From NCBI GenBank assembly GCA_030141605.1, contig JAQGDQ010000299.1:223804-287803 (forward strand): 64,000 nt of DNA, in the 5' to 3' direction. This DNA is from Tubiluchus corallicola (lineage: Eukaryota > Animalia > Priapulida). The position numbers were made by a program, and so were the translations under genes. Position 1 is the first letter of the stretch. Every line of letters begins with the position of its first letter. Positions 1,549 through 61,878 of this stretch are shown here, one piece after another. A model generated the notes under the pieces. The model was not told where the DNA came from, did not search any database, and saw only the letters and a program-made list of their open reading frames with translations.

Positions 1549-2433
1549 AACCGTGCAACAGAACGATTTAGACGAGTCCTTCCAATGGCCCCCAATATGG
1601 TTAAACAAATTCTCCGTTTCTCATCGTTTCATGCTACATTTACCCGTTTCACATCTGCCGCGGATGCAGGTAAGCAGTGTCGACGGTGCACCCTTCCCTT
1701 GTAAATTCATTCAACGACACATTTCAAATGCAATGTCGCTTGATACGGGCGCCACATCACGCCGTTATACCTGCACCAGATGCATCCTTTTATGTCAGGT
1801 TTTTATCTACATCTATGCAAACATATTCGTGTCGCTCTTATCTCCCACTCTCACCTGTTCGGGTAGCTTGGGCGTGGCTAATCACTGCCCTTATACCTGT
1901 GCAGGTAAACGTGTTTGCGTAAAATCAGGTGCATTTGTCGCAAATCGGTGGTAATTAATGATCATTAAGTGACAAATTCAGATTGGAGACGAGAGTCGTA
2001 GTAGCCGAAATGTGATTGGAACTTTGACCAGCAGAATGGGGGCTAATTCAATAAATAAGAAGCGGAACGGAAATGCCACCGTAGGATTGGTGTAGAGTAA
2101 TGGAACTAATGATTGCAACGTTTTTGAATATTATGACATTTTCCGGCAAAAATGTTACGTACAATGACATCATTTGGTTAATTGCTACCCTCATGTTGCT
2201 CTACATCCATGTTTTACTGTTGGTGGTCCACCTGGTCTATGCACAGTTGCATCAATTATAAGCGTCTATAAGCTTTTTCTAGTTTTTTCTAGATAATTAA
2301 TATAACTCATCGGAGCCATTTTTGCGTTTGTGAGCAGAGACATGTCTTTGTCCTGCTGATGTCGCCCATTTTAATCGATATTATCAAGACTTTTCAAATT
2401 TCGAAATTACTTACGTGACAACTGCATATAGTT

Positions 2434-2969
2434 TAGGGTGCCAGCACTCCTAATTTGGCCCCGGAGTCTCCTGAAATTCGGCCATGCATATCTAGTTCGG
2501 TCGGATTTTTGAGAAACTTTAAAATCTCCTGAGATTTTGACCATTGCATTGAAATTGAAGTGAAAAAGATGAAATACATGAACCGTTGCATAAGACTAAG
2601 ATAAAAACAGCATTTTCGTTACGTAAAATTGTAATCTTATTGAATTAAATTATTACATGGCTAATTCAACGTTCTCTACATTTTCGGCAAGTTATGCTGC
2701 AACGACAATTGCTGTAATGCAAGTATTCTTCCGGTTCAACTTTACTTCACTTAACATAAACCATCTATGTCCTGAAATCTCAAAAACGTCAAAAATATGG
2801 TGGGTGTGGGAACCAACTACAAAAATTGATTAAACCGTTTGCACTCAGTTTGTAAATTTTAGGGTTTTAGAGCTTTTCTAGTCTAAAATCAAGAAATTTG
2901 CACGACTTTGTGGGTTGACTTTCTTGATTTCACTTCCTCATTTCGATACGTGACGAGGCGGCAACCCTA
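2434..2969. mobile_element. Probable old hAT-like MITE
   Basis: Imperfect termini tagggtgcc (2434) and ggcaacccta (ends 2969) resemble TAGGGTTGCC hAT TIRs; no clean 8-bp TSD. Confidence 0.4.
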
Positions 2970-3692
2970 ATTATCCTTAACTCTAAAAGAGATCTTTGCA
3001 CAGTTGTACTGTACGGACGGTTTAATCATCCGTATACGATTTACTAAGATACTGTATACAGTCTACTGCACAGTGAAAAAGTTCCCAAATTCTTCTTATC
3101 TTTCCTGTAATTTTGTGTTTCATACGAGCGTTCTTAATTTTTTTGTTCCATGTTTGACTGTTGCACTGAACGTAATAAGAAAGCCTGTGCTTAAAGGTAT
3201 AAATCATGGGATACCAAGCGCCCGAAATCTCCCCCCAAATTTCACACTGCAGTGATTTTAATTGTGCTCAAAAACTGATTTTTAAATAATAATGTCCGGA
3301 GTATGCAATGAGTGTCCCGTCTGCGCGTTATTTATTGCTGTAGCACTGAAAGCCTTGCCAAATTCTCTGTTGTTAGCAACTGTTAACCGAGCCAAGTCAC
3401 ACAGATACGTATATCAGATTCTGGCAGGAAATTTAACGTGATAAAGCTAAAGCAAATGTCGCGAATTTTTGACCTGTACCCAATGTCATTGAACAAGAAC
3501 ATGGATTTTTAATCTGATTTGGAACCACAGGTACAACATCTTCGCCTTTAACAATCTTGAAATCACTTTAAGGTAGTTTACTAGATTAGCAACCTGAAAA
3601 TTGCCTAGAATTTCGATTGCTTTGAGTTTAGTGACAGCAAAATCAGAACTTGGGGAGTGGAATTAACCTATACTAGCCTTAGGACGTTCTGC

Positions 3693-3887
3693 TAGGCGTA
3701 AATACTAATCATTATAGCGAGCCCATTTCATTACGTTATCTGTAGCGTTATAACTGATACTGAACACGCTGTACTAACATTACAGTCACGGTCAGTACAG
3801 TAGGCGTAAGTACCAATCATTATAGCGAGCCTATTTCATCACGTTATAACTGATACTGGGCATGCTGTACTAACATTACAGTCACGT
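3693..3887. repeat. ~100-bp direct duplication (2 copies)
   Basis: taggcgtaa...atcattatagcgagcc...ctgtactaacattacagtcacg occurs at 3693 and 3801; the second copy has a short deletion. Confidence 0.85.
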
Positions 3888-4109
3888 GGGTAACGAGTTG
3901 AGGTTATTATTCAAGAGTTAATGAGTTCTATTTCCTCTGGAATCTTGTCAAGTTGACATTTCCTTCTGGACCAGTTTCAAACCGCATTTCGGGTCGCCAG
4001 CTCCTACAGAGAACAAGCGGAAATGTTGTTGTTGTTCGAGCATAATACAAATTTCCGTGAAAATGAACTATTATACATTAGAAAATTAAATTAAATTCTT
4101 ATAACACAC

Positions 4110-4714
4110 TTAAAGAAAGACAGGATGATTTTTCATGCACTACCCCATTTTTAAGTCCAAAAAACAGTTTACATTTTAACACAATTAACACTGCAAAAGC
4201 GCTTCTACTAATTAAAGAATAGATTAAAAACTTAATTAACGGCTGGCGAGCCCAATTACTGATGATAATTTTCAACGGCAAATATATTCCACGAGCGTGT
4301 TGCACGTGTTTGCGAAAGCAGAATTGAAGTACAGTGCTACTGTAAGATATTCAGTGTGTTGTACTAAAATTAGGCAAGTTTTAAGATAAAAATTCGAATT
4401 TCAAATTTACCGCTGTGCTCACGCACGTGTCGAGCATGTGTTCGTCACAGACTAACACATCTGAACTGAGAGGTACAGTACCTGTTTTTCGTGCAATGCG
4501 TTTCCGAAATGCAGGCGCTAGTGCCCGTCTAACTAGCGAAAGGGGAAATGCATGTAACAGCGAAGAACTAGTGACGCGAACGTAAAATTGTGTTTGTGTG
4601 GTAATAATTCTTTCACGTAAGTCATTTTTGAAAAAATAGCACGTTTCCTTTCAATGTTTTAAAGAGTAGATTGTTTTGACCTACAGTTTAAGACTGGGTT
4701 CGGTTTTGCTTTAA
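4110..4714 (+). mobile_element. TTAA-flanked non-autonomous DNA transposon, Kolobok-like family A, copy 1
   Basis: Termini TTAA-agaaagacagg and cggttttgct-TTAA. The body (ggcgagcccaa, cacgagcgtgttgcacgtgtttgcgaaagc, gcgctagtgcccgtctaactagcgaa) is shared with 18341-18941 and 61262-61878. Confidence 0.85.
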
Positions 4715-4845
4715 AGAAAAAGTTGAATGTGTCGTCTGCATTACACACCTTAACTAAATGTTGCTTATAGCAGTTAAGGAAAAACTCAAAAAGTCTCAAA
4801 CTACACCCAAAGAGCAAAACCCAAAAAAGGTTGAAAACTAGGCTT

Positions 4846-5205
4846 CGGTCCTCCGTGGTGTAGTCCCTGTGATAGTCCAAAGGAAAGCAGAGCGATACGT
4901 TTGGCACCAGGTTGGCTGCAGAAGCTGCCGGAGTCAGTGAGCATGCTGCACTGGTCCACCTTCGGGGCTCCACTCCTAATTTGGAAGGTTTTCTCCTCTA
5001 CACATGGCCGTTGGGTCACTTGACCGCCTCCGCCCTCTAGCCGTTGGCTGCTTGTGCAGCTTCTCCGCCTAGTATCGAGATACAGTATGGGCATCCCGCA
5101 AAGCCTACAGCATCTGGTGTTCCCAGGCGGTCACCCATCCGAGTACTAACCAGACTCTACGTTGCTTAACTTCGGTGATCAGACGAGAACCGATGGCCGT
5201 AGTCT
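4846..5205 (-). mobile_element. 5S rRNA-headed SINE (SINE3-type) with a probable RTE-derived body
   Basis: The 5S head (5100-5204) runs into a ~250-bp GC-rich body with no TTTT terminator. Diverged candidate TSD: ggttgaaaactaggctt (4829-4845) vs ggttcaaatctgggctt (5206-5222), 14/17 identical. The RTE origin of the body is inference. Confidence 0.65.
5100..5204 (-). pseudogene. 5S rRNA-derived sequence with an internal deletion (head of the SINE)
   Basis: Minus strand reads gactacggccat-cggttctcgtctgatcaccgaagttaagcaacgtagagtctggttagtactcggatgggtgaccgcctgggaacaccagatgctgtaggcttt, i.e. metazoan 5S. About 16 nt are missing after GGCCAT; box A and box C are retained. Confidence 0.93.
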
Positions 5206-7288
5206 GGTTCAAATCTGGGCTTTCGATAATCGTATTTCGTTTCCCTGCTAAAATGTTGTCATTACTGATTGATCTGTTTCTCTCGTGAATCTAATCTTCA
5301 TTTTCATCATCATCACGTTCTCATTTCCTAACTCTCACTATCGCCTTGGTATTTTATTCTCCTTATTCATTTTACTTCGCAGCTTCTACTTCTTCTATTT
5401 CCAGTTTGCCCCTTTGCTCAGAATTGTACAAGACTATTTTAATAGTAATAGCTTATACTGTAATGTATGTAACAATGTATTATTTATAGTATTTTGGAAA
5501 TGCGCTAAACTAAACTAAGACATAATGACGTTTGCCGTTTCCTGCAGAATTTCATATGATTTCATAATTCTGATTTTTATGCATTTTATTTTTAACATAT
5601 TCTGGTTGTGACCTTCATACATTCGACGCCATGTTACTTTTCCCTGTATATAAATAGTCATTTTAAGAAACTCAGCGCAGTCAGTTCGTGTTTTTTTTTC
5701 AATTTTAACTCTTTCACCTGTTATTTTCCCTTTTATCAATTGCACGTGATCACTAATCAAAGGGAGGAAGAATCTTCCACCTGACATTAACAAGACACCT
5801 GTTGATTCCATTGTCATTCTCTGGAGAAGGTGTAACGGTAATAACATGCCCCACGGCCTGCACTGATTCTATATCAATTACACGTGTATGTGATCTGATA
5901 TAATTTTATGGCTGCCGTGCGGTTAATTATAACTGCAGCTTCCCCGCATCTTTTCGAACCTTAGCAGACTCAGGTTCAAGGACATCACTCGCGCGGGCTG
6001 TGATCAAATTTCATTGATCTATGACTTTTGATTAGAAGATGATTGTGCCACTGAGGGGGCGCTTTAGACAGCTTCTAACATGCGTATCTAGAATAAACTT
6101 TTTGTTGTGAATCGCTTCAAAAATACAAACTACAAATACGGTCATTAATTCACCTTCGCTAAGTTACTGATCAAAACTTTGGAATTAAATAAAGCTGTAA
6201 TTTTATAACGTACGTGTATGAAATGCAGGAATGGCTTGATGTACGTTTAAGAATAACAGACGGGCACAATTAAACCTTGATTATACGATAAACCAGCCCA
6301 GCAAGCGCAGACAGTTTTTATGTGGGTTTTTGCAAAGAAATGATTGACGATTTCTAAAAACTGTCACACCTAATCAATCGAATAAAAGAACCAGGTAGCC
6401 TTGTCATCCCAGAACCGTTTCGTGAAAAATCAACACCGTGAAAAAGCATTTTGTCTCTTTCATCTCTTGCACCTGTTCCTCTTTCTCGGACTCCATCTCC
6501 TCTTTCAGCAAATTTGGTAAAAATTCACCCCCGCTAATAGCCGCACTGGTCAACTCTGTTGTCAGCACCTGCGGGACATTGTTGCCCGGCACGTGGCAGC
6601 TCTGCTCCCTCTTGTGTCCCTCTCTAATTGTTTCCTGCGTTTTTACATTCTTCCGCGGCAGTTCTACAAGCATGCTCACTTGTTTTGCTAACAAGGTGCA
6701 CGTTCTGCGACTGGACATTGATACAAAACGATGTTTATCCAGGTTTACTGTTATAATAAATGGCCGGAGAACGGTCAGCGGGTGCTTAATTGGCTGTTCG
6801 TTATGATGGTCAAGCTGTTGACCATGCGAGGAACAGCTGCTCAAAATCTGAATGAACTACCGGTATCGTTTTAGAAAAGCTTCAGAACATTTTTTGTCTT
6901 AAGAGTCCAGCATAAAAGGACTTACCTTACTTTGCTTTATTTGTTTTTATTTATTATTATATTTATTTGTTTTTATATAGTTTTATATGTTGATTTAAAT
7001 CTAAAGTAAAATAAAAATAAATAAATATTTACATGGTGAATAGTTAGCATTATTTAGGTAAACGTTCTGTTGATGCTAGATGCAAAATATTGGATTATTG
7101 GTAAGTTATTAGAGCTAAAGACTTGCTAGGATCATTAGGGGCTGTTTGGTCCACACCGTGTTGGTGTTGGACTGTCCCAATTTTTATATTTCCTTTTTTA
7201 GTTCAAATTTGGTTTCACAATTTAATATTTGGGGTTAATTCCATCATTAATTAGTAATTTTGATACTAAGATTTTAAGTATAATTAAT

Positions 7289-17305: not shown

Positions 17306-18340
17306 ACATCTTAATTTCAAAATAATTATCGATTATTTATAGAATGAACCCATAATCATTAAACATTTGAAACCAAACTTGACTGAAAGAAAAAGTTAAA
17401 AAGTCGATGCAGATCTCGGAGTTGAACCACGGACCTTTGTCTCATGCGCGTGTGTGATTGTTCAATGCAGTGTTAAGAAAGTGTGGCACTGCGAATTGTT
17501 ATTAATGTCGTTTTTCCCAAATCGACAAAGATGAAAAATAGAAGACCAAGTGCTGTCTCAAGCAGAAGTTTTTGTAAAGATGCGTTTTGAGTTGTGCTAA
17601 TAAAACCATCAAATTATACGCAAAGAGTTTTAAGATGTGCTGTTAGACGTTAGCTTTTAAAGTTCACTGCAGGCGCAAATTATGAAACACTTAAAAAGTT
17701 AATAATCATAGTTGAAATACTAGGCATAATAATTATAAAGCTAGATTACAATTTTTGTACAATTTTAATGGTTTTTCCAGGTCTAGTGCACGTGGTCGTT
17801 AAGTTTTCAGAAGTTGTTTTTCGTTAATGTTAATAAAAATTCCCAATAGCATCTTTAAATCACCATAAATTAATTGTGACTTTTTTCCAGTAACTTTTTT
17901 CGTGGCCAAAATTGTAACTTTTTTCTTGCGACGTTTTTTCTGATGGCTTCATTGTCGGCCATCTATATAGAATGTCGTCCACGATTAAAACCGCTACATT
18001 ATATAGGTCAAAATAAACAATTGCAACTGTTTAAGTTCAATTACGGTTTAATTTAAAGTTGAACATATAAACAGGAAATAATCAGCTCAAAGATATAATT
18101 TAAATAACCAGCGTTTAACTTCCTCATTAACATATTTTATTATAATCATTGTGTAATTATCCACTAGGCGTAAATCGTTTCCGGTCTGTTGAATTAAAAT
18201 TGAAAATAACATTCAACGAAGATAACAACAGGCTGTAATGACTAGCTTCGAATTGAAATTGCGTTTTGTAAAACATACAATTGTTACATTATAATTAGGT
18301 CCCGTAAGATCATGTCAGGATAAATTAAAATCTGTTAAGA

Positions 18341-18941
18341 TTAAAGGAAAACAGGATAATCTCTATATTCTACCCCATTTACAGGAAAAGGGTTATATTT
18401 TAGCACCTATGATAATGACAAGGCGTTCCTGATAAGGAAATAATAGGCGAAAAACTTAATTAACGGCAGGCGAGCCCAACTAGTGATGACATCACAAACG
18501 AACATAATTTTCAACAGCACAAACATTCCACGAGCGTGTTGCACGTGTTTGCGAAAGCGAAAATTGAAATACAGTGCTACTGTACAAGATTCAGTATGAT
18601 ATACATTAACTCGACAAATTTTAAATTTTACGGCTCTGCTCACGCATGAGCTCTCGAACATGTGTACTACGTCACAACTGAACACATCTGAATTGACAGG
18701 TACAACGCCTGTTTTTTGTGCAACGTGTTTCTGAGATGCAAGCGCTAGTGCCCGTCTAACTAGCGAATGACGAAATATAAACAACAGCAAAGTCCTAGCC
18801 GCGCGAACGTGAAATTACGTTTCTGCAGTAATAATTGCTTTGCGAAAATCATTGTTGAAAAAATTGCATGTTTCCTTTCAATATCTTACAGGACAGATTG
18901 TTTCGAGCTATAGGTTAAGACTGGCTCCGGTTTTCCTTTAA
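18341..18941 (+). mobile_element. Kolobok-like family A, copy 2
   Basis: Termini TTAA-aggaaaacagg and ccggttttcct-TTAA; body homologous to 4110-4714. Confidence 0.88.
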
Positions 18942-32458: not shown

Positions 32459-33025
32459 CATTTAAAACCCATCTGGCAAAAATGGACGTTTTGGTTTGCA
32501 TACAGTCAGTAAATCAACATCATAGAGTTTACGAGGTGGATAATAAGGTTTCCCCATTTTTCGCTTGTTTCTTGTGATTTTGACAGGAAAATATAATTCG
32601 CTTCATTCAAGCCAACTTCAACTTGACCTCGCACTGTAGGGCACTCCACAGTTTGAAACAATGATTGTCGTTCTTGGTTTTTAGAAGTGAAAAAGGCAGG
32701 TTTGACATCTTTGAGTGGGCTTATAACACTAACAGCGGTCTTGCGAAAGTTTTTAGGGCTATAAGCCTATTCAAAGATGTCACACCTGCCTTATTCAATT
32801 CTAAAACTCAGGAGCGAGAATCATTGTTTCAAACTGTGGCGTGTCCTATTGTGCGAGTTCAAGTTGAAATTGGCTTGAATGGAGCGAATTATATTTTCCT
32901 GTAAAAATCACAAGAAACAAGTGAAAACTGGGAAACCTTATTATCCACTCGTAAACTCTGTAATGTCGGTTTACTGACTGTATGTAAACCGAAACGTCCA
33001 TTTTTACTAAATGGGTTCTAAATGT
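32459..33025. mobile_element. Long-TIR (foldback) MITE: ~228-bp inverted arms and a ~113-bp spacer
   Basis: 32459-32686 is the diverged reverse complement of 32800-33025, e.g. caggaaaatataattcgct / agcgaattatattttcctg and ccacagtttgaaacaatgatt / aatcattgtttcaaactgtgg. Confidence 0.85.
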
Positions 33026-33730: not shown

Positions 33731-34342
33731 TTAAGGAAAACTGGACGATTGTGTAGACATTAGTTCAAAATAAAGTGAGCTCAAAAGTCTTGAAAACTAC
33801 AACAACGTTTCACATATAGTTCAAAATAAAATATGCTCAAAAGTATTGAAAACTACAACAACGTTTTTTAAATCAAAGCTTAGATTAAATAATAATTACC
33901 TGAGATAGTTAAATTTTGTTAAATTTTCAAAGCTACACGCGGTTCAGCGAATCCAGTAAGAATGGCAACGACGCGTTTTTATCACATTTGCGTGGCCGAC
34001 AAATAGGCGCTGTACCGTGATAAGCGTGATTACGAACGGCCTAGTTCGTCTGTGACGTCAGTGTGACGTAGAGCTCAGTTTCGTGACATCATATCGGCAC
34101 CTTATAGCAATCTTAGCTTACGCAAACGTGTTTGAAGCGCAGGGGAAGATGGCTACAATTGCACAAACTGTTGTTAGTTTGTGACGTAAGCGATAGTTAT
34201 GTTCGATTGCCGTTAATTAACTGTTCAACTTAATTATTCAAATGTTAAAAACAATTGCTAACTTTGTAGGCACGAAAATGTATATTTTGGACGGAAAAGT
34301 AAAATGAGATTAAGTCTAACCATTCGTCCGGTTTTCCTTTAA
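33731..34342 (+). mobile_element. TTAA-flanked Kolobok-like family C, copy 1
   Basis: Termini ttaaggaaaactggacga and tcgtccggttttcctttaa; inverted paralog at 54710-55145; internal ~56-bp duplication at 33761-33866. Confidence 0.85.
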
Positions 34343-38855: not shown

Positions 38856-39641
38856 GATTCTTTTATACTGCATTTCGCATTTTCCGACAGAGAATTTTTA
38901 AGCATTGCAATGTAAAAGTATATAAAAAAGATAAATGATAGTAATGTTGCTTTATTTTTAAGGTAATAATTTCCACCTTGGTGTTTATACGCCCTCTGTG
39001 CAATTAGGGTCGCATTTCGATATGACCCCCAATTATCGCGGAGAAGCTAAAACCGCCTCCAGAAAGAGTAACGGTACAAATAACTGCTGTCAATTACAGC
39101 TTTTTAACATGTTGCATAGCGGGTTATTATTATTACCGTAAATAACAATGGACAAAAAACGTGACTGGGGGTGGGGGGGGGTGAATATAAAGAACCGCGT
39201 GGGAAGGTAGCACATGTTATACACGATGGTACTAATTGCTCTTTTACTAGAGAGGATGTTCTTCAATAGGCGATGCAGCTATAGACGAAAGTAAAAAAAA
39301 GCTGAATTGTATTTCGTTAACTTCAAAGGACCGTTGGCGCTTGAATCGTCTACGTCGAGGACTTAAAATGGCGCTCAGTTGCTATGGTTTTGGGCTCAAG
39401 TCCAGGGTCTCCCAAAGCCAAGATGCATATGTATGATATTCGTTGTTCTTGTGTTATTACTTCGTACATGTTGTTGTGTAACTGCTGTTTTGTTTTTGTT
39501 TATCAATGGGAATGTAACTGTATCTTTTCCTTATGATAATTTTGGTTCTTCATTCGTCAGCGTACATTTGGTCAATGCACATATGGTCAATGGATATTTC
39601 GACATTGTACATTCCGCTACTGTGTTTGCGTTCCATAACAT

Positions 39642-40140
39642 TCTTCTTCTTCTTCTTCTCAGCTTTTCCCTATGCGGGGTCGCCGTTGTGAATGAGTCTT
39701 CTCCACGCATTCCTGTTGTTGACCATCTCTTCATTTATGTCTTCCCTTCCCAAAAGATCTTCACCGACTCTTCTTTTCAGGTGTCCATATCATCGCAATC
39801 TTGCAAGGCTTCCACTACTTTTACTGTTCCTCTGATATTATTATTTCTAATTTTATCTCTTCTTGTTATTCCCACCATCCATCTCAACATCCTCATCTCC
39901 ACCACACCCATTTTCTTCTCTTCGGCCTTCTTTAGAGAAGCTGCTTCCAGCCCATAGATTAGAGCGGGTCTGACCACTTCTTTGTGGACTTTCCCTTTAA
40001 GTCTCACCGACTCATTCATAGAAGGTTTTGGCGCAGTTTTTACAGGCGGATGCCCTTCCTGACCCTAACCCTCCCTATTTATCCGGGCTTGAGACCGGCA
40101 CTGAGTTGGGTTGGCTTGCCCCCCCCCCAGTGGCTAGGTT
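39642..40140 (-). mobile_element. Non-autonomous, internally deleted RTE retrotransposon with a 5' twister ribozyme
   Basis: TSD ttg(c/t)gttccataacat at 39626-39641 and 40141-40156; (GAA)n 3' tail; post-RT RTE peptide LKGKVHKEVVRPALIYGLE...EMRMLRWMVGITRRDKIRN; 5'UTR gtcaggaagggcatccgcctgtaaaa. Confidence 0.92.
40063..40140 (-). ncRNA. Twister ribozyme, 3' cleavage-product portion
   Basis: Minus strand AA-CCUA-GCC-[ACUGGG...CUCAGU]-GCCGGUCUCAAGCCCGGAUAAA-UAGG-GAGGG-UUAGGG matches the twister core (GCCGGUCCCAAGCCCGGAUAAA...GAGGG). P2 (CCUA/UAGG) and P3 pair; the 5' strand of P1 is absent. Confidence 0.88.
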
Positions 40141-41582
40141 TTGTGTTCCATAACATAATCTACTATTTATGTCATTTGCCTGTGCTCGGTCTACACCTAG
40201 ACAATACATGTATAAACAAATTTAATAACAATATTTACAAATTCCAAAACTGCATCTAAAAATCTTGAATCTCATACCCAATAAGTTAGGTCCTATTCTG
40301 CCTGCCAGGCTTTTGAAATCCATTTTAAACACTGTCAATATTCCAGACATCTGTCGCAGGATCGCTGAATTAATTTTATTAAGCGATTGATCTAATTATT
40401 GACCCTCGGGAAATGAATTGAATCCGTGGCGAAAGTGTTGAATTTAACGGTAAATTCGCAGCTGCCCAGCCTCAGGTCGCTCCCCGCATAGGCGCAGTTA
40501 ATTAGTAACTTAGTTTATATAGCTAATAGAGGAAAATATGAAATAACGTTCTTCCTGTTAATTTAAATGGTCTGATTTTGATTGCCTGGCGGCCTGCACG
40601 CTCGCATGCTTGCACAGCTGCCATTGGTTAATTAACAAGATCGCCTTTTTTGCGTCTAACAAAATGGCGATTAAAACGCACTTGGGTTCTCGAAAGCTTG
40701 TATAACATTTGCAAGTTTAAGACTCAACAAGCTGTTTTTGAACTCACCTGTTTATGAATTTTGTTTGGCTTGCAAAATGTGGAAAGAAATTAACTGTTGC
40801 TATTTGGAAAATTACTATTACATTACTCTAGAGAGCTTACTTATGCAAAAGCGTTGGCATTGTTAGGTTAGTAGATTTTGTATAAAGAATCGTTTATAGA
40901 TCTTCACTTACTGATGAGAACATAGGCGTAACAGGACTGAGAATATTTATGATAAACGTGTGGTTTATATACCAACTGACTAGAAAACTGACCAACCAGT
41001 TCATATTCCACTAACTAACACGCACATAAATAAAACGTATTTACAACTATTCACAAAAAAATTAAAAATTATGATTTTATTAATATGGCCGTGGATATAT
41101 AAATTCTGAATTAGTGCGTATGTTGTCGTACTGGTGTGATGGTATTTCATATCTGGTTAATATTAATGATTTTAATTTTGTTTTAAATGCTGATAGGGAC
41201 CTGATTTGTTTAACCTGATTGGTTAAACAATTGATTTGATTTGATTGGTAGAGAATTCCAAAGTAGAATTGTTTGCTTGATTACAGAGTTCGTTCCATAG
41301 TGGGCAATCGTGCAACTTGTGGGTATTCACAATTATGAAAGACAATTATTCTCTTTGACACTGAGTTTTCGCACTTTATACCATTCGTTTGAAACAATTT
41401 GATAAAGTTTTGTTTATTTTTAATTTGCACAGCGTTTTTTGTCAATTTATTTTTGCAAATTTAGTTTTTTCATGCCCATATAATCGTATGTTATTCTTCA
41501 AGTAACCATTTTGTTGTAAACAAACGCTGGCAGGTGACGGAATATGTAATAAAATATCGTGATACTTTTTTACTATAATCTT

Positions 41583-43343
41583 ACTTCTTACATTTCACCA
41601 CCAGAGGTAACAGAAACAAGCTGACAGCTTCTCATTCATCCAAACAAAGGCTCTGGAGACATGTTTCCTTTCCCGTCGGTCATAATCCCATTTGAACCAA
41701 ACATGTCGGTTATCTAATATCTTAACCGAATTTCCGACTCTGTCGTTTGTAGCTTATTTTCGTAATTGATGATGAGCTTAAATTGAATGTACGAATTACT
41801 ACAATTCATAGTAAAATAAGATGTGAAAGATTTCAGCCATCCAATGCTTAATAATTAATAATTAACGTAAGGTATGCATTGTCACTTGTAGATGGCAGCA
41901 CTTGTAGCATTGTTGTAGGATGGCGACAGCTAATAATTGAATATGTGTGTGTGAAACAGAACGGACAAGAAGATTTAGATTCGTCTCGATGTTATTCTAA
42001 ATTTCATTTTGAAATAAACATTATAATTAATAATAATTTTATTGCCTAAAATCCATATAGAAAAGATCTTTGACGTTCAAACATTTAAAACTTACAAGAA
42101 ATCTACGAACCATAAGAAAAAATTAAAAAACTTCTAAAAATATATTAATTTCACGTTTAAATCTACGAACCATATTTATCATTTCATCTTTAGTGTTCAG
42201 ATGCTGCATAAACCTTGCAAAAAATCATACTCTTTTAGACGTGCTGAGTAAAATGAAAAGTGACAGTCAAATTACCCCATTTTTATCCTTGTTATGATAC
42301 CAGCCGCCACCCCCTGTATATCTCAAATTTTACTCTTAATTTCCGTAATTACATATTGACGTTTACGAATAATAACAAAGATACCCAAAAACAAAGTTAC
42401 CAGAAGAGTTTTTAAGGGGCTTGCGCAGTTTCTGCAACTTCGTGTACTGAGTAGCAGAGATACAGAATTTTCTGGCTACAGTTAACAGACGTTTACTGAG
42501 GTTTTGTAACCCATATTTTAGAACCTTCATTGAATGTGGAATTCCACCGCTCTTCTATGTGAAGCTATAATTTCCTCTCAGTTATCAGTCTGAGCTTTCA
42601 CAAACGTACACACTATCCCAGGTCACCCACCAAAATCATATGATACTAATACTTTAGTATAACCAAGAACTAATCTTGTTTCAGCTAGAGGTAGAATTTT
42701 TCCAGTGCTGTCCCTCGTTTACGAAATGTGCTTTCAAATGAGGTCAAAATCTCTCAAAGTATTGCTGTTTTTAAACGTGAAATTAAAATATTTTTAAAAG
42801 TTTTTTAATCTTTTCTTATGGTTCGTAGATTTCTTGTGAGTTTTAAATGTTTGAACGTCAAAGATCTTTTCTATATGGATTTTAGGCGATAAAATTATTA
42901 TTAATTATAATGTTTATTTCAAAATGAAATTTAGAATAACATCGAGACGAATCTAAACCTTCTTGTCCAATCTGCTTCACACAAACACATTCAACTATTA
43001 GCTGTCGCCATCCTACAACAATGCTACAAGTGCTGCCATCTACAAGCGACAATGCATACCTTACGTTAATTATTAATGATTAAGCATTGGATGGCTGAAG
43101 TCTTTCACGTCTTATTTTACTGTGAATTGTAAGAAATTCAAGGCCATCATCAATTACGAAAATAAGGTACAAACGACAGAGTCGGAAATTCGGTTAAGAT
43201 ATTAGATAACAGACATGTTTAGTTGAAATGGGATTATGATCGACGGGAAAGGAAACATGCCTCCAGAGCCTTTGTTTGGATGAATGAGGAGCTGTTAGCT
43301 TGTTTCTGTTACCGCTGGTGGTCGGTAGGAAATGTCAGAAATC
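41583..43343. mobile_element. Large inverted repeat or foldback element: ~575-bp arms and a ~610-bp spacer
   Basis: 41583-42161 is the reverse complement of 42770-43343 with scattered substitutions and small indels, e.g. tcattcatccaaacaaaggctctgga and atccatatagaaaagatctttgacgttcaaacatttaaaact are mirrored. Confidence 0.9.
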
Positions 43344-48999: not shown

Positions 49000-49137
49000 G
49001 TTGAGCGCTCTGACTGCACACAGCAGCGGTATTGGTTTTTGTGGCCGCACGCAGCACTGATCTTTCTGTTTGCTCTCCTACATTATCCTCATCTATTCGA
49101 GTGCTAAGTGGCGTTAAAGAGTGTGGAAGGGGAAGGC

Positions 49138-51823
49138 ATGAGTTCCCAGGATTTTACCACGCAGTCTGGCGACGAGGACCGGAAACAGATTGGTGGGTAC
49201 AGCTGTCAGGCATTTGGAACTAAGAAGATCTTTAAGAAACTTCATCCGACGCTGAACACCATCACAGAGAAGGAAGAGAAGTCGATGGCATTTGTGAGCA
49301 ACAATAAGAAACGGAAACGGGCCAAGCTGTGCCTGGATTTCTTGCTCAACGGGTCATCAAACAGGCACTGGAGTCCTATTGGGTACACCATCACCGATAG
49401 TGAGCTACCTGCAGAAGCAGAAGAACCTTTAATCAACAACGCTCCACATGGAGACAGCAGTGGAGACGAGTGGAGTATTCACACACCGGATTCAGCTGAA
49501 GCGTTTCTGGACCTAATGGATCGCAAGAGTCCTGATTCACCTGGACCAGGACCCTTGCTAAACTTTTCTGTGGAAAGCTTGCACAATATTTCGCCAGAGT
49601 CGCTACTGCATGTCAGCGACAGAGAATTTTCGACACCAGAATCGGTTGAATCCATCATGGACGACACGCCCAGGTCGAGTAGAAACAGCAGCTTGAAGAG
49701 AAACTTTGAGCTAAATGGCAACGTGCCAGACGACACAAAGGAACACTCCCGAGAATTTGACCCGAACAATCCTATGGATTCACGTATTTACGATAAGATA
49801 TGGGAGACAGAGAACCAACAAACGTCGTGGAAGCAAAATGACTTGTGCAATGGATGGAGCGACTTTCCGGCGAGACCGCAATCTCCTATTGAAATTAATC
49901 GTAATGAAGAATCAAGTTCTCCTACTTGCCTTAATGGAGATGTAAGTAATCGATATTGTAGTGACCGAGAACCAGACGAAATAGACAGTCTTATAATGCG
50001 CACAAAAGCTGAAAACAACAAACAACAACTTTCACCCCTAAAAGGACGCAAACCATACAAGGAACTATCACGTCCACTTAAAAGCACAGATGTCACAGAG
50101 TACAAAAACTCTTTAAACAGATCACGGAGGCCCACCAGGAATGTTGACAACCAAAACACTGGTGACAGATCAAGAAACAGAAGTGGTGCATCCATCACTA
50201 GTTTACCACAGGAAGTGAAGAACAGCCACAAAGAGGCAGACATGAAGATCAATGGCAACCGCAGGAAGCCGCCCACACCTCCTTTGAAGCCACCCAGAAT
50301 GTACTACAGTCACCTGCTTGAAAATCCCAATATGGTTAATAACAACAAGAATGCTGGGGAAAAAGAACTGGATAAGCGTCCGAATAGACCTGCTTCATCA
50401 GCATCAGTTACGCCTGATGAAGGCAAGCGTGGCATGAAACCAGCCGGTCGACAGCAACGTTGTCGCAGTTTAAGCCCCACAAGAAATGGCACCTCTCTCA
50501 GTCTTCCTCCTGAACGTGTTCGATATTCAGATCAGCTTGAAACTTGCACCCGATCCAGCCGATCACAGCATGATAAAAATCTGAACTGGTTCTTGCAAGA
50601 GTCGAAAGAGCAACGACAGAATTCCTCGCAACGGGAAAGAACGCAGAAGAATCTGTACGAGAATTGTCGGATGACACGATCGACACAGTCTTTACAGCGT
50701 GATCAGAGATTTGGTTTAAACAAACAAGACATGGACGAGCAAGTCGAGGTGGCTTCCCTTTCTGGTTCTGTGAAGGAACGAATCGATAATTTCGAAAGAA
50801 TGTCGCAGACGTCATCAAACAGTGAAAATGGTCATAGATTTAAATATCTCAGCGATTCCGAGTACAGCTATAAGAAGTGCAAGCGCCGCCCTGGTGAGAA
50901 GAAGTCTCTTGGCTACTGCAATAGCTCCGGATCAGCATCTTGTGATGAGTACAATCTTGATGATGACTTTGCTCCCCGTTGGGCCAACTATTGCTTACTG
51001 AAGAACATCCGTAATTCAGAAACCGGTAGCGATGATACTTCTGTGTTAAACAGAGTAGTCAAATATCCCACATTTAGTGACTTGACCAGTGCAGATCTGG
51101 AACTGCAACCATCTGATTTTGATTACGAGCTGGACAGTCAGGGTCCAGTGTACGAAGAGAAGTCCAGCTGGAGGACCCAGAGCGACACCGAAAGCGGCAG
51201 ATCTGGAAACAAACATCGCGTGCGATTTGCTTGCGACGATGATGTTAAACATAAGCAAAACAACGAAGCACAAAAACACCAGAGCAAAGAACTGACTACG
51301 TACGGTAGTGATACGTCTGAGAGAAAGTGTCCTACGCCAGTACTTGAGGGAAATAATTGCACAAGTTTTCAATGGGAAGTTGGTTTACAGACATCTAAAA
51401 AATTCTTGGATGCCAATAATAGCATGACTACGTATATTAGTGATACGTCTGAGAGAAACTGTACTACGCCAGTACTTGAGGGAAATAATTGCACAAGTTT
51501 TCAACAGGAAGTTGGTTTACAGACATCTAAAAAGTTCTTGGATGCCAATAATAGCATGACTACGTATATTAGTGATACGTCTGAGAGAAACTGTACTACG
51601 CCAATACTTGAGGGAAATAATTGCACAAGTTTTCAACAGGAAGTTGGTTTGCAGAGATCTAAAAAATTCTTGGATGCCAATGATAGCACGGTGTCGCGAC
51701 GCAGTGACAACGGCGGGCTAGAGGAACCTAAGATTACGATTGGCCTGATGAGATCCCATCTAGAAGATCTTATTGAATGTGCCGTCAACATTCAATTGTC
51801 TCTCAGCGACGCAGAGGACGAAG
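49138..51823 (+). CDS. Large first coding exon (~895 aa) of an unidentified, largely disordered signalling or scaffold-type protein; 3'-incomplete
   Basis: 2.7-kb non-repetitive ORF with higher GC than its surroundings. An in-frame TAA at 49105-49107 precedes ggcATG at 49138. Consensus donor GAAG|gtgagt at 51823/51824 (phase 1), after which composition becomes intron-like, so the ORF-track end at 51885 is read-through. Confidence 0.88.
51293..51690 (+). repeat. Coding 132-bp (44-aa) tandem repeat x3
   Basis: tgactacgta... starts at 51293, 51425 and 51557; unit TTY(G/I)SDTSER(K/N)C(P/T)TP(V/I)LEGNNCTSFQ(W/Q)EVGLQ(T/R)SKKFLDAN(N/D)S. Confidence 0.97.
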
Positions 51824-53483
51824 GTGAGTTTGTTTTAGCTTCTAGAGAAATTAGAGTAGTACTATGTTTGCATTTCAGTAGCTAATATAATGGCTACAGC
51901 GTGAGGTCAGCCTCTTGTCTGGAATTAAGTCTGCACACAAACTTTTCAAGTTCAATTACATAATGCATCAAAAAGGTTTAAGGTCTCGTGACAAAGATTG
52001 CATAGATCAGCTAATCCTTAAATACCAGGCAGCATGGAGCTCTGCACATAGGAAATGCACCATGCTTCCAATGTAAACGCTTCTGCTATATTGTCTGCAT
52101 TAGAAAAGCGCTCCATTGCCTCAAGCAGTTCTTTCTCCATTAAGCTTGTTATGGTTTTCACTTGGAAACTGGGTTTACATATTGTAATAATTGATAGCTT
52201 CGTCCTCGGGTACAGCATAAAATGATTAATCAATGGTCCTACCTGCTGACCTCTTAGACCTTAATGTCAATTTTTCTACTGACGACTGAAGACCAATTGC
52301 AGGGGACTTACTTTCACATAAAAGCAGATTTTCGCCTTGAGATGTAAAAAGATCAAACGTTTATCTGTAGTAGATTACACGAGAAATCAAGCTGTGTTTG
52401 TAATTAGCAACTTTTAACAGAAATTGAAACGGCGCCATTTTTGAGACCGTTTAACTTTTGTGTTAATCCGCGCAGCAAATAGTTTTTTTGTAGTGGAATA
52501 TCACTTTTGACAAAGTTTTGCAAAGTTTTCACTTATTTATTTTATTATTTATTGTTTGTTGTCTGTAAACTCGTCAGGTCTCTCAATTTATGATTATTTA
52601 AAAAAAACACTGAGGTTGTTCGTTTTTAAATCTTACAGTAGATCGTGCTATGACTCCATTTCAGTACAAAAAACTTTTTTGCATGCTGCATGCATGCTTC
52701 CCTGCTACAGCCATCACAAACTCATGTTACTGGCTTTTCTTAAATTTAAATTTAATTGGTTTCGTGCCCGAGGTTTGTAGTGCAAATTTAATTTGTTCGG
52801 CTGAAACAAGTCAATCAACCTGTACTTTCTAGCGTATATGTGCTAAACAATATTTGATAGAATTTAGCTCTAGGCGTTCGGAGGGCCAATGCACTATACT
52901 CGATTCGTTTATGGCATTCTTAATCAGCCTTAAATATCATGTCATTTTTGTTATGTATTAACATTCGTGAGAAAACTCTTACTTGTTGTCTGTGACACGA
53001 TGGAATGTTTTGTAGTAGAAAACGAAGACTCCTGTATCACTCAAAGTTTCACTTTTAATTTAAATTTTAATACCACATATAAAATACGTCATACGGCGCT
53101 GAAAGTTTTTATAGAGAAATTCTGTACAAACATTATAATGCTTCTTCCTTCTACATTTGTTGATTATTTAACTCCCTTTCAACAAATCCATTACTATTTT
53201 ACTCGTAGACTTATTGGTAACGTTGATCCTCCTGGCATACATACTAGTTGCTGCTACCGAAATTCTTCATATGCTGCTATCCCAACAATGGACTCAACTT
53301 ACTCCTTGGGCAAAAGATTTGGAATTGCAACAGTTTAAAAAGGACATATTTGATTTGTGACTAACTCGTTACCTAACCTGCTTAGTTGGCGTTTTTAAAT
53401 GTTTCTAACTTCAATTGTTTGTCTTGCTACCATTAACTGTCTTTATAACTGTCTGAATATTGCCTTGACTGTGCCAAAAATAT

Positions 53484-53790: not shown

Positions 53791-54709
53791 CAGTAGAATT
53801 AAAATATACGATTCATCTGTCTGCACCATGTGTTTACACAGTATCGTGTTGATTTCAAAAACTCACACTCCTACTCTGCTCGAGGCTCGTTCGTGTAATT
53901 TTCAAACGCTACTTTTATTATCGCAATGTAGCTGTTATCATGTATATAGTTAAACATTTTTGTGACACAAATCAGCCAAATTAAAGATTTATTGAGTTGA
54001 AAATTGAATTGAAATACGTAATAATTAGTGTAAACTCCTCAATCTTGTCAATTGTTTCAAAGTTAGATACAGTTTACAGACATCTGTGAGCCAAAGGTTC
54101 AACTGCTTTAGCACTGACGTCACAAAATACCAGAAAATTGTGCATATTCAGAATTCATGTGTATGGAATCTCCTCTGAAGTACAATTACAATTACTTATG
54201 CTTACAAAAGCATAAGAGTTTCTCCAAATTCGTGTCCTAATGCACATGATTTTTGAAGAATGTTAGTTCCAGTTTTTGGTGATTTGACAAAGTTTCTGTA
54301 ATTTGACGAGCAATATAATCAAATATTGCATTAACTTCTGACTGGCCGTCTTTTACTCATCCCCCCCTCCCCCTCCCCCGCCGAAAGCTGGAAATGTAAA
54401 CTACAGTTGCAAAACATGTGTAGTATTGTGTACCTTTATTTTTATATTTGTGTATATCTTATTTTTTATGTGTATAGTTATCTTTATCGTCTTTATTTTT
54501 CTTGCATTTATGTCTGTTCCTCTCGCTGTTTTGGCTTTGTTTTCGTTTTTATCTTTTTTATTCTTATGTTTACTTTCATCTTCATTTTGTCTTTAATTCC
54601 ATGTCTACATCAGACTCAATCTCATTTTAATTTGCTCTCCAAAATATACATTTCCTTGCCTATAAAAGCCAGCAATTGTTTTTTATTTTTCAATAATTAG
54701 CTTGGAAAG

Positions 54710-55145
54710 TTAATTAACACAACCGAACACAGCTATCGCTTACGTCACAAACTAACCACACACAGTTTGTGCAATGGCAGAAATCTTTCCCGCATGTCAA
54801 GGACGTTTGTGTAAGCATATGTTGGTATAAGATGCTGATGTGATGTCAAGAAAATGAGTTCTTCATCACACTGACGTCAGAAACTAACACAGCAGTTCAT
54901 GATCATGCTTATCATTGTACCGCGTCTATTTTTCGGCCACGCGAATGTGACAAAAATACTCCATTACCAGTCTTAGTGGATTCGCTGAGCCTCGCGTAGC
55001 TTTGAAAGTTTAACCAAATTTAACTATCCGAGGTAATTATCATTTAACTTAAACTTTGATTCAAAAGAACTGTTGTAGTTTTCAGTATTTTAAAGCATGC
55101 TTTGCTTTGAATTAATGTTTTCACAATCGTCCGGTTTCCCTTCAA
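54710..55145 (-). mobile_element. Kolobok-like family C, copy 2 (truncated, diverged)
   Basis: ctatcgcttacgtcacaaactaac, ggattcgctga and cacaatcgtccggtttccctt are reverse complements of segments in 33731-34220. Confidence 0.8.
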
Positions 55146-61261: not shown

Positions 61262-61878
61262 TTAAAGCAATACGGGACCCAATACTAAAATATAGATCAA
61301 AACCATCTACTCTTTAAAATATTGAAAGAAACATACTACTTTTTTTACCTAATGACTTACATGAAAGAATTATTAGCACACAAACACAATTTTTACGTTC
61401 GCACTACTAGTTCTTTGCTGTTATGTATATTTGGGCATTCGCTAGTTAGACTGGCACTGGCACCTGCATTTCGGAAACACATTGCACAAAAAACAAAGCG
61501 CTGTACCTCTCAGTTCAGGTATGCTAGTTTGTGACGAACTACACAAGTTCGATAGCTCATGATGAGCACGGTAAATTTGAAATTTGAATTTTTATCTTAA
61601 AGCTTGTCTAGTTTTAGTACAACACACAATATTTTACAGTAGCACTGTACTTTAATTTTCGCTTTTGCAAACACGCGCAACACGCTCGTGGAATATTTTT
61701 GCTGTTGAAAATTATGTTAGTTTGTGATGTCATCAATAGTTGGGCTCGCCCGCCGTTAATTACGACTATTATTTAAATATTAGAAATGCTTTTGCAGTAT
61801 TAATTGTGTTAAAATGTATACTTTTTATCGGACTTGAAAATGGGGTAGTGCATGAAACATCACCCTGTCTTCCTTTAA
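61262..61878 (-). mobile_element. Kolobok-like family A, copy 3 (inverted)
   Basis: Reverse complement of 4110-4714 with TTAA at both ends; an extra terminal fragment of the same family follows at ~61884-62016. Confidence 0.88.

What the first reader, a model, noticed from the sequence alone, without database searches (positions are those of the whole stretch)
39626..40156. Mini RTE retroposon whose 5' end is the exact cleavage product of a twister ribozyme
Seen: a ~500-bp minus-strand element between 16-bp TSDs (one mismatch). It starts AACCUAGCC, has a P3-like hairpin and the core GCCGGUCUCAAGCCCGGAUAAA-UAGG-GAGGG, then an RTE 5'UTR piece, a short post-RT coding remnant and a (GAA)n tail; EN and RT are deleted. 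Established: twister ribozymes cleave U|A so the 3' product begins AA plus the P2 strand, and twisters are known at the 5' end of some RTE-clade elements. Inference: the element boundary falls at that scissile position (within 1 nt, because of the A-run) and the 5' P1 strand is replaced by host TSD. This copy therefore looks reverse-transcribed from a self-cleaved RNA and mobilised in trans, i.e. a SINE-like parasite that uses a ribozyme instead of a Pol III head. Whether a new copy can cleave again would depend on flanking host sequence pairing with UUAGGG, and here it does not obviously do so.
Basis: partly seen in the sequence, partly recalled or inferred. Interest (0 to 1): 0.88.

Follow-up and report, generated by a model that had tools for sequence, protein, structure and literature searches.

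The report
Twister-headed miniature RTE retrotransposon family
This 499-base insert is a young copy of an abundant, protein-less jumping element made of the two ends of a larger retrotransposon; many copies begin at the exact letter where the self-cutting RNA (twister ribozyme) at their front is predicted to cut, a trick already published for full-length flatworm elements and here likely carried over to a miniature parasite of such an element.

Summary
Observation confirmed. The element is 499 nt (minus strand, 40140-39642) between 16-nt target duplications. Its head matches Rfam twister-P1 (51.5 bits, E 4.5e-10, under the 67.2 cut-off) with P1 at chance pairing. It is a family: summed contig depth is roughly 1,700-7,100 times flank depth over the head (not a copy number). 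The commonest listed loose end is at 40140, the first A of AA, with unrelated flanks (34 of 115 partly fitting contigs in X2, 13 of 55 in X4). One contig of another sample shows the empty site, and parent-like contigs continue on both sides of the main deletion. Cleavage and trans-mobilisation are inferred, not tested. The mechanism is published for Perere-3 (twister) and R2 SIDEs (HDV ribozyme, non-autonomous); bipartite RTE derivatives are known. My paper searches found no twister-headed non-autonomous RTE in print, but this scan noted the same kind on other DNA at least five times. Verdict: real, an expected variant.

The parts
40141..40156 (-). 5' target-site duplication (host DNA); it occupies the place of the twister P1 5' strand and the -1 base (A)
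   Evidence: empty allele skips 515 = 499 + 16
40139..40140 (-). AA: first two bases of the element, equal to the 5' end of the predicted twister 3' cleavage product
   Evidence: loose ends at 40140 in X1, X2, X4; cleavage position from PMC8501958
40065..40140 (-). P1-less type-P1 twister ribozyme: P2 40138-40135 with 40077-40074; GC pseudoknot strand 40134-40133; P3 40132-40099; P4/L4 40098-40083; GAGGG 40073-40069; P1 3' strand 40068-40065
   Evidence: Rfam RF03160; fold; pair counts; coordinates
40112..40117 (-). P3 apical hexaloop AAGCCA, shared as AA(G/A)CCA with related RTE twisters on covarying stems
40016..40064 (-). rest of the RTE 5'UTR (CAGGAAGGGCATCC motif; AACCTTC at 40027-40021 is predicted to pair with GAGGGTT)
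   Evidence: 82-88% identity to RTE 5'UTRs of L001-L003; folds
40009..40015 (-). parent ORF start codon and 4 more bases; the main deletion junction is at 40009/40008
   Evidence: X4 loose end before 40009 reads on as an RTE N-terminus (translated by hand; compare)
39810..40007 (-). coding remnant 1, residues 841-906 of a 987-aa RTE ORF (post-RT), 77% identical
   Evidence: tblastn with P0014
39670..39804 (-). coding remnant 2 in another frame, residues 914-986 with a 30-codon deletion near 39741-39756, ending in the ORF's stop (39672-39670)
   Evidence: loose ends at 39740 show less-deleted relatives
39642..39669 (-). short 3'UTR and (GAA)5 tail; a small hairpin is predicted around the stop codon
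39626..39641 (-). 3' target-site duplication

Best explanation
The insert is one young copy of an abundant, internally deleted RTE retrotransposon derivative that starts at the AA where its twister ribozyme is predicted to cut, and it was likely copied from a self-cleaved RNA by the proteins of a full-length RTE acting in trans. Steps: (1, inferred) a master copy is read through from a host or neighbouring promoter, since it has no Pol III head; (2, inferred from structure and literature) the twister folds and cuts N|AA, needing little or no P1; (3, inferred) the parent's endonuclease-RT binds the retained 3' end and primes reverse transcription at a nick, copying to the cut end; (4, shown) the result is a copy starting at AA, flanked by a 16-nt duplication, with host DNA in place of the P1 5' strand. 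A downstream UTR segment is predicted to capture GAGGGUU once transcribed, so cutting would be co-transcriptional.
For: Rfam hit and canonical P2/P3/P4 fold. On 6 aligned sequences 3 of 4 P2 pairs and 3 of 4 inner P3 pairs change on both sides, and 0 of 500 shuffles reach the covariation score, whereas P1 has 52% of cells paired and no compensatory change. Depth step at both element ends. Loose ends at 40140 with unrelated flanks: 24 of 161 partly fitting contigs in X1 and 35 of 238 in X2; 34 of 115 in X2 and 13 of 55 in X4; agreement 0.44-0.5. Depth runs unbroken across the main junction in X2 (8.2-9.0e5 at 39995-40012 against 7.6-8.9e5 in the UTR). Empty allele in X4. Parent-like contigs on both sides of the junction in X4. 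Closest proteins are EN+RT single-ORF elements. Same geometry, cleavage and TSD adjacency are shown for Perere-3.
Against: No cleavage or transposition was tested. The Rfam score is below gathering. This copy carries two private changes in the ribozyme (40092, a U-G wobble in the CCC/GGG pseudoknot; 40111, loss of the pair closing the P3 loop). Many loose-end rows were not shown (363, 81), so the full spread of 5' ends is unknown; 16 X2 contigs stop at 40128 in the G-run and two listed contigs run to 40142. No full-length parent was recovered, only short parent-like contigs in X4, which is another sample. The minimum-energy fold pairs GAGGGUU with downstream AACCUUC, which would block the active fold at equilibrium. 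Fold z-scores of the head are not significant (-0.66, -0.45). Junction variants exist (gaps of 9-16 nt near 39990), so the family has sub-forms.
Confidence: 0.82

Rival explanations
1. The 5' end is a transcription start from an internal promoter in the head (as Pr77 in L1Tc/NARTc); the twister set the boundary once in the parent's history and no longer needs to cut in this family.
For: L1Tc/NARTc heads act as both promoter and ribozyme (PMC3383444, search listing and abstract start only). P1 pairing here is 2 of 4, a level 62% of random window flanks reach. The family is too young for decay of an unused ribozyme to show (about 7 of 499 sites differ from the majority).
Against: The start falls exactly at the published scissile bond. 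The fold covaries across distant RTE families. P1 is reported dispensable. Cleavage is shown for Perere-3 variants with 2-7 As.
Confidence: 0.1
2. The copies are not an independent transposing family but dead, separately deleted or segmentally amplified copies of an autonomous RTE.
For: Junction variants and several small private skips exist among contigs (table 5). X4 has about 20 times more depth at the 3' end than at the 5' end, so many relatives there are 5'-truncated or share only the tail. Only contigs, not an assembly, were available.
Against: Depth is continuous across the main junction in X2, and parent-type continuations are rare (2 and 1 listed contigs in X4, one at depth 6.7 against about 80,000 summed). 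Flanks at the 5' end are unrelated, the copy has its own TSD, and an empty allele exists.
Confidence: 0.05
3. Cleavage is real but strictly needs P1, so only the few copies that land next to a complementary flank can act as masters.
For: Proposed in PMC8501958 section 21, where T-variants differ in rate. Only 3.5% of random flanks give 4 of 4 pairs with UUAG and 24% give 3 or more. This rival shares the rest of the best explanation.
Against: In a screen of 2,625 natural twisters P1 imperfections did not lower the cleaved fraction. Related RTE twisters show 1-3 of 4 P1 pairs. The loose-end consensus upstream of AA is low-agreement AT-rich DNA with no sign of target selection.
Confidence: 0.25

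Closest known systems
Twister T-variant ribozymes heading Perere-3 of Schistosoma mansoni (PMC8501958; abstract and sections 17, 18 part 1 of 2, 19, 21, 22 read)
   Same: Same element order (AA, P2, GC, P3, P4/L4, P2', GAGGG, UU-R-G); TSD directly against the AA; TSD stands in for the P1 5' strand; microsatellite tail; by A count this copy is a 4A variant.
   Different: Perere-3 as described encodes EN and RT. This element has lost both, has a longer P3 with an AARCCA loop and a different 5'UTR. The sections read do not describe short non-autonomous derivatives.
Bipartite ORF-absent non-autonomous RTE LINEs (RTE-N1/N2_Lch, RTESINE1/2, WALLSI3, Bov-A; PMC5786205, parts 1-3 of 5 and passages read)
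   Same: 5' end of an RTE joined by internal deletion to its 3' end; no small-RNA head; the paper notes that such elements usually keep the parent's 5' end and links this to predicted 5' ribozymes.
   Different: The paper never mentions twister (0 occurrences) and cites HDV-like ribozymes. This family keeps about 330 nt of post-RT coding sequence.
R2 SIDEs and R2/R1 hybrid SIDEs of Drosophila (PMC3414825; abstract and Discussion read)
   Same: Ribozyme-headed, internally deleted non-autonomous non-LTR element, released from a co-transcript and mobilised in trans.
   Different: HDV-like ribozyme, which cuts at its own 5' edge; site-specific in 28S rDNA; rare. Here a twister that loses one strand at each cut, dispersed and abundant.
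Truncated twisters at RTE 5' ends (one sentence in review PMC7761336, 'in preparation'; passages read)
   Same: States that truncated but catalytically competent twisters are conserved at the 5' end of RTE-superfamily retrotransposons.
   Different: No data shown in the passage; non-autonomous derivatives are not mentioned there.

Membership tests
type-P1 twister ribozyme (RF03160) | covariance-model score at or above the gathering threshold | tested here: not met
   51.5 bits against 67.2, E 4.5e-10; 1 of 16 matches in 14 related loci reaches it, a viral one with full P1
type-P1 twister ribozyme (RF03160) | P2, P4, two pseudoknots, AA after the cut site and GAGGG | tested here: met
   one U-G wobble in the CCC/GGG pseudoknot in this copy, C-G in the family
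type-P1 twister ribozyme (RF03160) | P1 stem and U at -1 | tested here: not met
   2 of 4 pairs, A at -1; hence filed as a P1-less T-variant, for which both are reported unnecessary
type-P1 twister ribozyme (RF03160) | self-cleavage at N|A | not testable with these tools
   needs an in vitro assay
RTE-clade non-LTR derivative | sequence descends from a single-ORF APE+RT element with RTE-type C-terminus and microsatellite tail | tested here: met
   77-80% identity to about 960-990-aa EN+RT proteins; clade name assigned from ORF layout and recalled motifs, no tree built
bipartite non-autonomous LINE / SIDE | 5' end and 3' end of the parent joined by internal deletion, no protein | tested here: met
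bipartite non-autonomous LINE / SIDE | many dispersed copies share the structure | tested here: met
   depth, junction-spanning contigs and unrelated flanks; from contigs, not an assembly
bipartite non-autonomous LINE / SIDE | insertion by target-primed reverse transcription (TSD, tail, empty site) | tested here: met
   TSD; empty allele in one X4 contig
bipartite non-autonomous LINE / SIDE | intact autonomous partner in the same genome | tested here: inconclusive
   short parent-like contigs in X4 and less-deleted 3' ends in X1, X2, X4; no full ORF recovered; no genome held
classical SINE (Pol III head) | tRNA-, 5S- or 7SL-derived head with A/B boxes | tested here: not met
   no Rfam or ARAGORN hit in the element; no A or B box at <=1 mismatch in the first 135 nt (box patterns recalled)
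retrozyme (hammerhead, circRNA) | hammerhead ribozymes in tandem or LTR repeats giving circular RNA | tested here: not met
   single twister, no hammerhead hit, no terminal repeat

The most novel reading that the evidence does not exclude
The head of this RTE lineage is a two-state device rather than just a cutter: a P1-independent twister that cuts once during transcription, is then shut off when the downstream UTR captures its catalytic GAGGGUU strand, and displays an invariant AA(G/A)CCA loop on P3 as a handle for the RTE protein. That would explain why RTE parasites must keep the 5' end and why every new copy can be a master whatever its flank.
Probability: 0.15. Interest if true: 0.6.

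Novelty: new variant of a known kind. Interest (0 to 1): 0.32.

Why it matters
It extends the ribozyme-headed parasite design (R2 SIDEs, NARTc) to twister-headed RTE elements and shows it can reach high abundance and remain polymorphic in an animal. Because each copy receives a random P1 strand from its target site, the family is a natural library for testing whether P1 decides which copies stay active, a point on which PMC8501958 and PMC11662667 pull in different directions. It also bears on the open remark in PMC5786205 on why RTE, Ingi and R2 in particular give bipartite derivatives. A specialist would expect such elements, so the surprise is low.

Tried and rejected
No whole genome is held, so no copy-by-copy tally was possible. 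No second copy of the element lies in the window, and the only RTE protein match in the window is this element. No RNA holder listed. X5 and X6 carry the same species label as X1 but gave only 2 and 1 contigs, matching the twister core of other families; this blank is no evidence on presence or expression. The twister+UTR pattern found 0 viral contigs. Target selection for U at -1: the loose-end consensus has U there, but contigs with A extend past 40140 and are excluded, so the signal is uninformative; rejected. The loose ends at 40128 lie in a G-run and continue as C/G runs; treated as length variants or artefact, not a second start. Whole-head folding energy is not better than shuffles. The bacterial promoter scan is irrelevant to this host. 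Host taxon: the 925-aa ORF gave no Pfam, homolog or atlas hit; the closest named relatives of the remnant are from decapods, which does not identify the host. Pairing of the P3 loop with GGUU was considered by eye and not tested, since GAGGGTT was fixed by my search pattern. Sequence look-up in earlier findings gave nothing. Alignment A1 used 5 of 15 fetched loci (L001, L002, L009, L011, L012); left out were L003 (short P3), L004, L005, L008, L010 (other UTR types), L006/L007 (near-identical to L012) and L013-L015 (viral). P4 and the CCC/GGG strands are invariant partly by construction of the pattern.

Full report
Observation. On the minus strand the window reads host DNA, ATGTTATGGAACACAA (40156-40141), then AACCTAGCC at 40140, and 499 nt later a (GAA)5 tail followed by ATGTTATGGAACGCAA (39641-39626). 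The duplication matches at 15 of 16 positions, or 16 of 17 with the next A; chance is about 2.5e-5 over 50x50 registers. Rfam twister-P1 matches 40145-40065 at 51.5 bits, E 4.5e-10, below the curated 67.2, with the P1 pairs flagged as broken. It is the only twister in the window, and the window holds no second copy of the element.

Ribozyme anatomy. After AA come P2 (CCUA/UAGG), the GC pseudoknot strand, a 34-nt P3, P4 with loop GUCUCAAGC, AUAAA, GAGGG and UUAG. This is the layout tabulated for Schistosoma twisters (PMC8501958 Table 1). The minimum-energy fold of 40150-40015 recovers P2, P3 and P4, though its energy is no better than shuffles (z -0.66). Pattern scans fetched 15 loci. Ten of the 12 with GAGGGTT lie beside RTE coding sequence (two of these are one contig; the pattern for L001-L003 already demanded the RTE UTR motif), and 0 of 3 viral ones do. 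On an alignment of the window with 5 of these loci, 3 of 4 P2 pairs and 3 of 4 inner P3 pairs change on both sides, and 0 of 500 shuffles reach the covariation score; P1 shows 52% of cells paired and no compensatory change. P4 and the CCC/GGG strands were fixed by my patterns and say nothing. In this copy P1 has 2 of 4 pairs, a level reached by 62% of random flanks, while 2 of 3 viral twisters have 4 of 4. So the fold is conserved except for the strand upstream of the cut.

Coding part. The remnant is 77% identical to residues 841-906 of a 987-aa endonuclease+RT protein, then resumes in another frame at 914-986 with a 30-codon gap. EN and RT are absent. In run X4 two contigs leave the element at 40009 and, translated by hand from the printed letters, read on from the ATG at 40015 as M-S-Q-N-Q-R-S-E-L-N-A-R, like the N-termini of full-length relatives (MSLIENETNAR, MSLTREPTNAR). 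One contig enters at 40005 from G-V-I-C-D-K-R-I-P-A, the expected upstream coding sequence. The main deletion therefore joins the start codon region to the post-RT region and the 5'UTR is whole. No intact parent ORF was recovered.

Family. No genome is held, so I laid contigs of public runs; X1-X3 are one sample and may be the window's source, X4 is another study. Summed contig depth is 3e4-9e4 inside against 13-15 outside in X1 and 7e5-1.2e6 against 117-173 in X2; over the head the ratio is about 1,700-7,100 across the four runs. The tool warns this is no copy number; I take it only as 'abundant'. Of contigs laid, 2,351 of 3,172 (X1) and 2,822 of 3,862 (X2) are 95% or more alike, and the window copy differs from the majority at about 7 of 499 sites, so the family is young. 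Depth does not drop at the main junction in X2. The largest listed loose-end class is at 40140: 24 of 161 and 35 of 238 partly fitting contigs (X1, X2), 34 of 115 and 13 of 55 (X2, X4), with flank agreement 0.44-0.5. Against this: 363 and 81 rows were not shown, 16 X2 contigs stop in the G-run at 40128, two listed contigs reach 40142, and small junction variants exist. One X4 contig (depth 26.3, 49 letters on the shorter side) joins 39642 to 40158, skipping 515 = 499 + 16: the empty site. A second X4 contig (depth 11.1) has the filled 5' junction but only 22 aligned letters inside the element, below the tool's bridging rule. Whether X4 is the same species is not known; its 3' to 5' depth ratio is 20 against 1.4-2.9 in X1-X3.

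Mechanism. Shown: boundaries, TSD, empty site, deletions, shared start, no Pol III head. Inferred: read-through transcription, twister cleavage at N|AA, binding of the retained 3' hairpin and tail (z -2.1) by the parent protein, and target-primed reverse transcription to the cut end. PMC11662667 (passages) reports that P1 imperfections and changes at -1 do not lower cleavage and that wobbles in the pseudoknots are tolerated; PMC8501958 shows 2A-7A variants and A|AA, C|AA, G|AA sites cleave, the 4A example with lower efficiency. This copy, a 4A variant with one private wobble at 40092 and one lost P3 pair at 40111, would more likely be weakened than dead. The downstream AACCUUC is predicted to pair with GAGGGUU (z -1.9, 11 of 200 shuffles as good), so cleavage would have to be co-transcriptional.

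Comparison. The core claim, a twister at an RTE-type element's 5' end with the TSD against the AA and supplying P1, is the result of PMC8501958. A review sentence extends truncated twisters to RTE elements in general (PMC7761336). Ribozyme-headed non-autonomous deletion derivatives are known as R2 SIDEs (PMC3414825; also PMC6765202 passages), and bipartite RTE derivatives are catalogued in PMC5786205, which has no mention of twister. A TSD starting with A after an A-rich tail fits the RTE pattern in PMC6007223 (abstract and section 16). Five searches listed no paper describing a twister-headed non-autonomous RTE family; the library lacks most subscription papers and Repbase, and supplements were not read. 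Earlier notes of this scan describe the same kind on other DNA; I saw them after forming this reading and did not test them.

Verdict. What this locus adds is a nearly intact copy, a young family with an empty allele, parent traces at the junction, and a conserved P3 loop with no explanation. New variant of a known kind; interest 0.32.

Noticed in passing
window 40117-40112 (-); L001, L002, L006/L012, L009, L011: P3 hexaloop AA(G/A)CCA is kept on covarying stems in RTE twisters that share the CAGGAAGGGCATCC UTR, and a loose end in X5 shows the same loop in another family. It is absent from the Perere-3-type and viral examples. Function unexplained.
   Followed up: partly
L003:841-1332: An independent twister-headed RTE copy whose 5'UTR is joined directly to residue ~750 of the ORF: a second internally deleted element; family status unknown, P2 decayed.
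   Followed up: partly
L004-L012: Nine loci (8 short contigs) in bacterial genome assemblies carry twister heads, 7 of 9 beside RTE coding sequence; likely eukaryotic contamination, and a source of false 'bacterial' twisters.
   Followed up: partly
L006 / L012, upstream of the twister core: The start of the ribozyme (TCTAG-C/T-CACA) is repeated three times in tandem, as if 5' ends were re-copied.
   Followed up: no
window 5215-5102 (-) and downstream to about 4870: 5S rRNA-derived head (59.5 bits, above gathering) followed by a GC-richer non-5S body; probably a SINE3-type element.
   Followed up: partly
window 49108-51885 (+): 925-aa open frame with internal 44-aa tandem repeats near its end, probably one large exon; no Pfam, homolog or atlas hit.
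   Followed up: partly
window 41585-43340; 32459-33024; 33812-34317 and 54612-55118; 4087-4714, 18321-18941 and 61262-61878: Other repeats: a 583-bp inverted pair 91% alike flanking about 600 bp, a 566-bp palindrome, and two dispersed families of about 500 and 620 bp; MITE-like.
   Followed up: no
window 40145 and 40157: The X4 empty allele appears to follow the 3' TSD copy and one further base, suggesting the 5' copy changed after or during insertion and the true TSD may be 17 nt (letters between the sides 'not known').
   Followed up: partly
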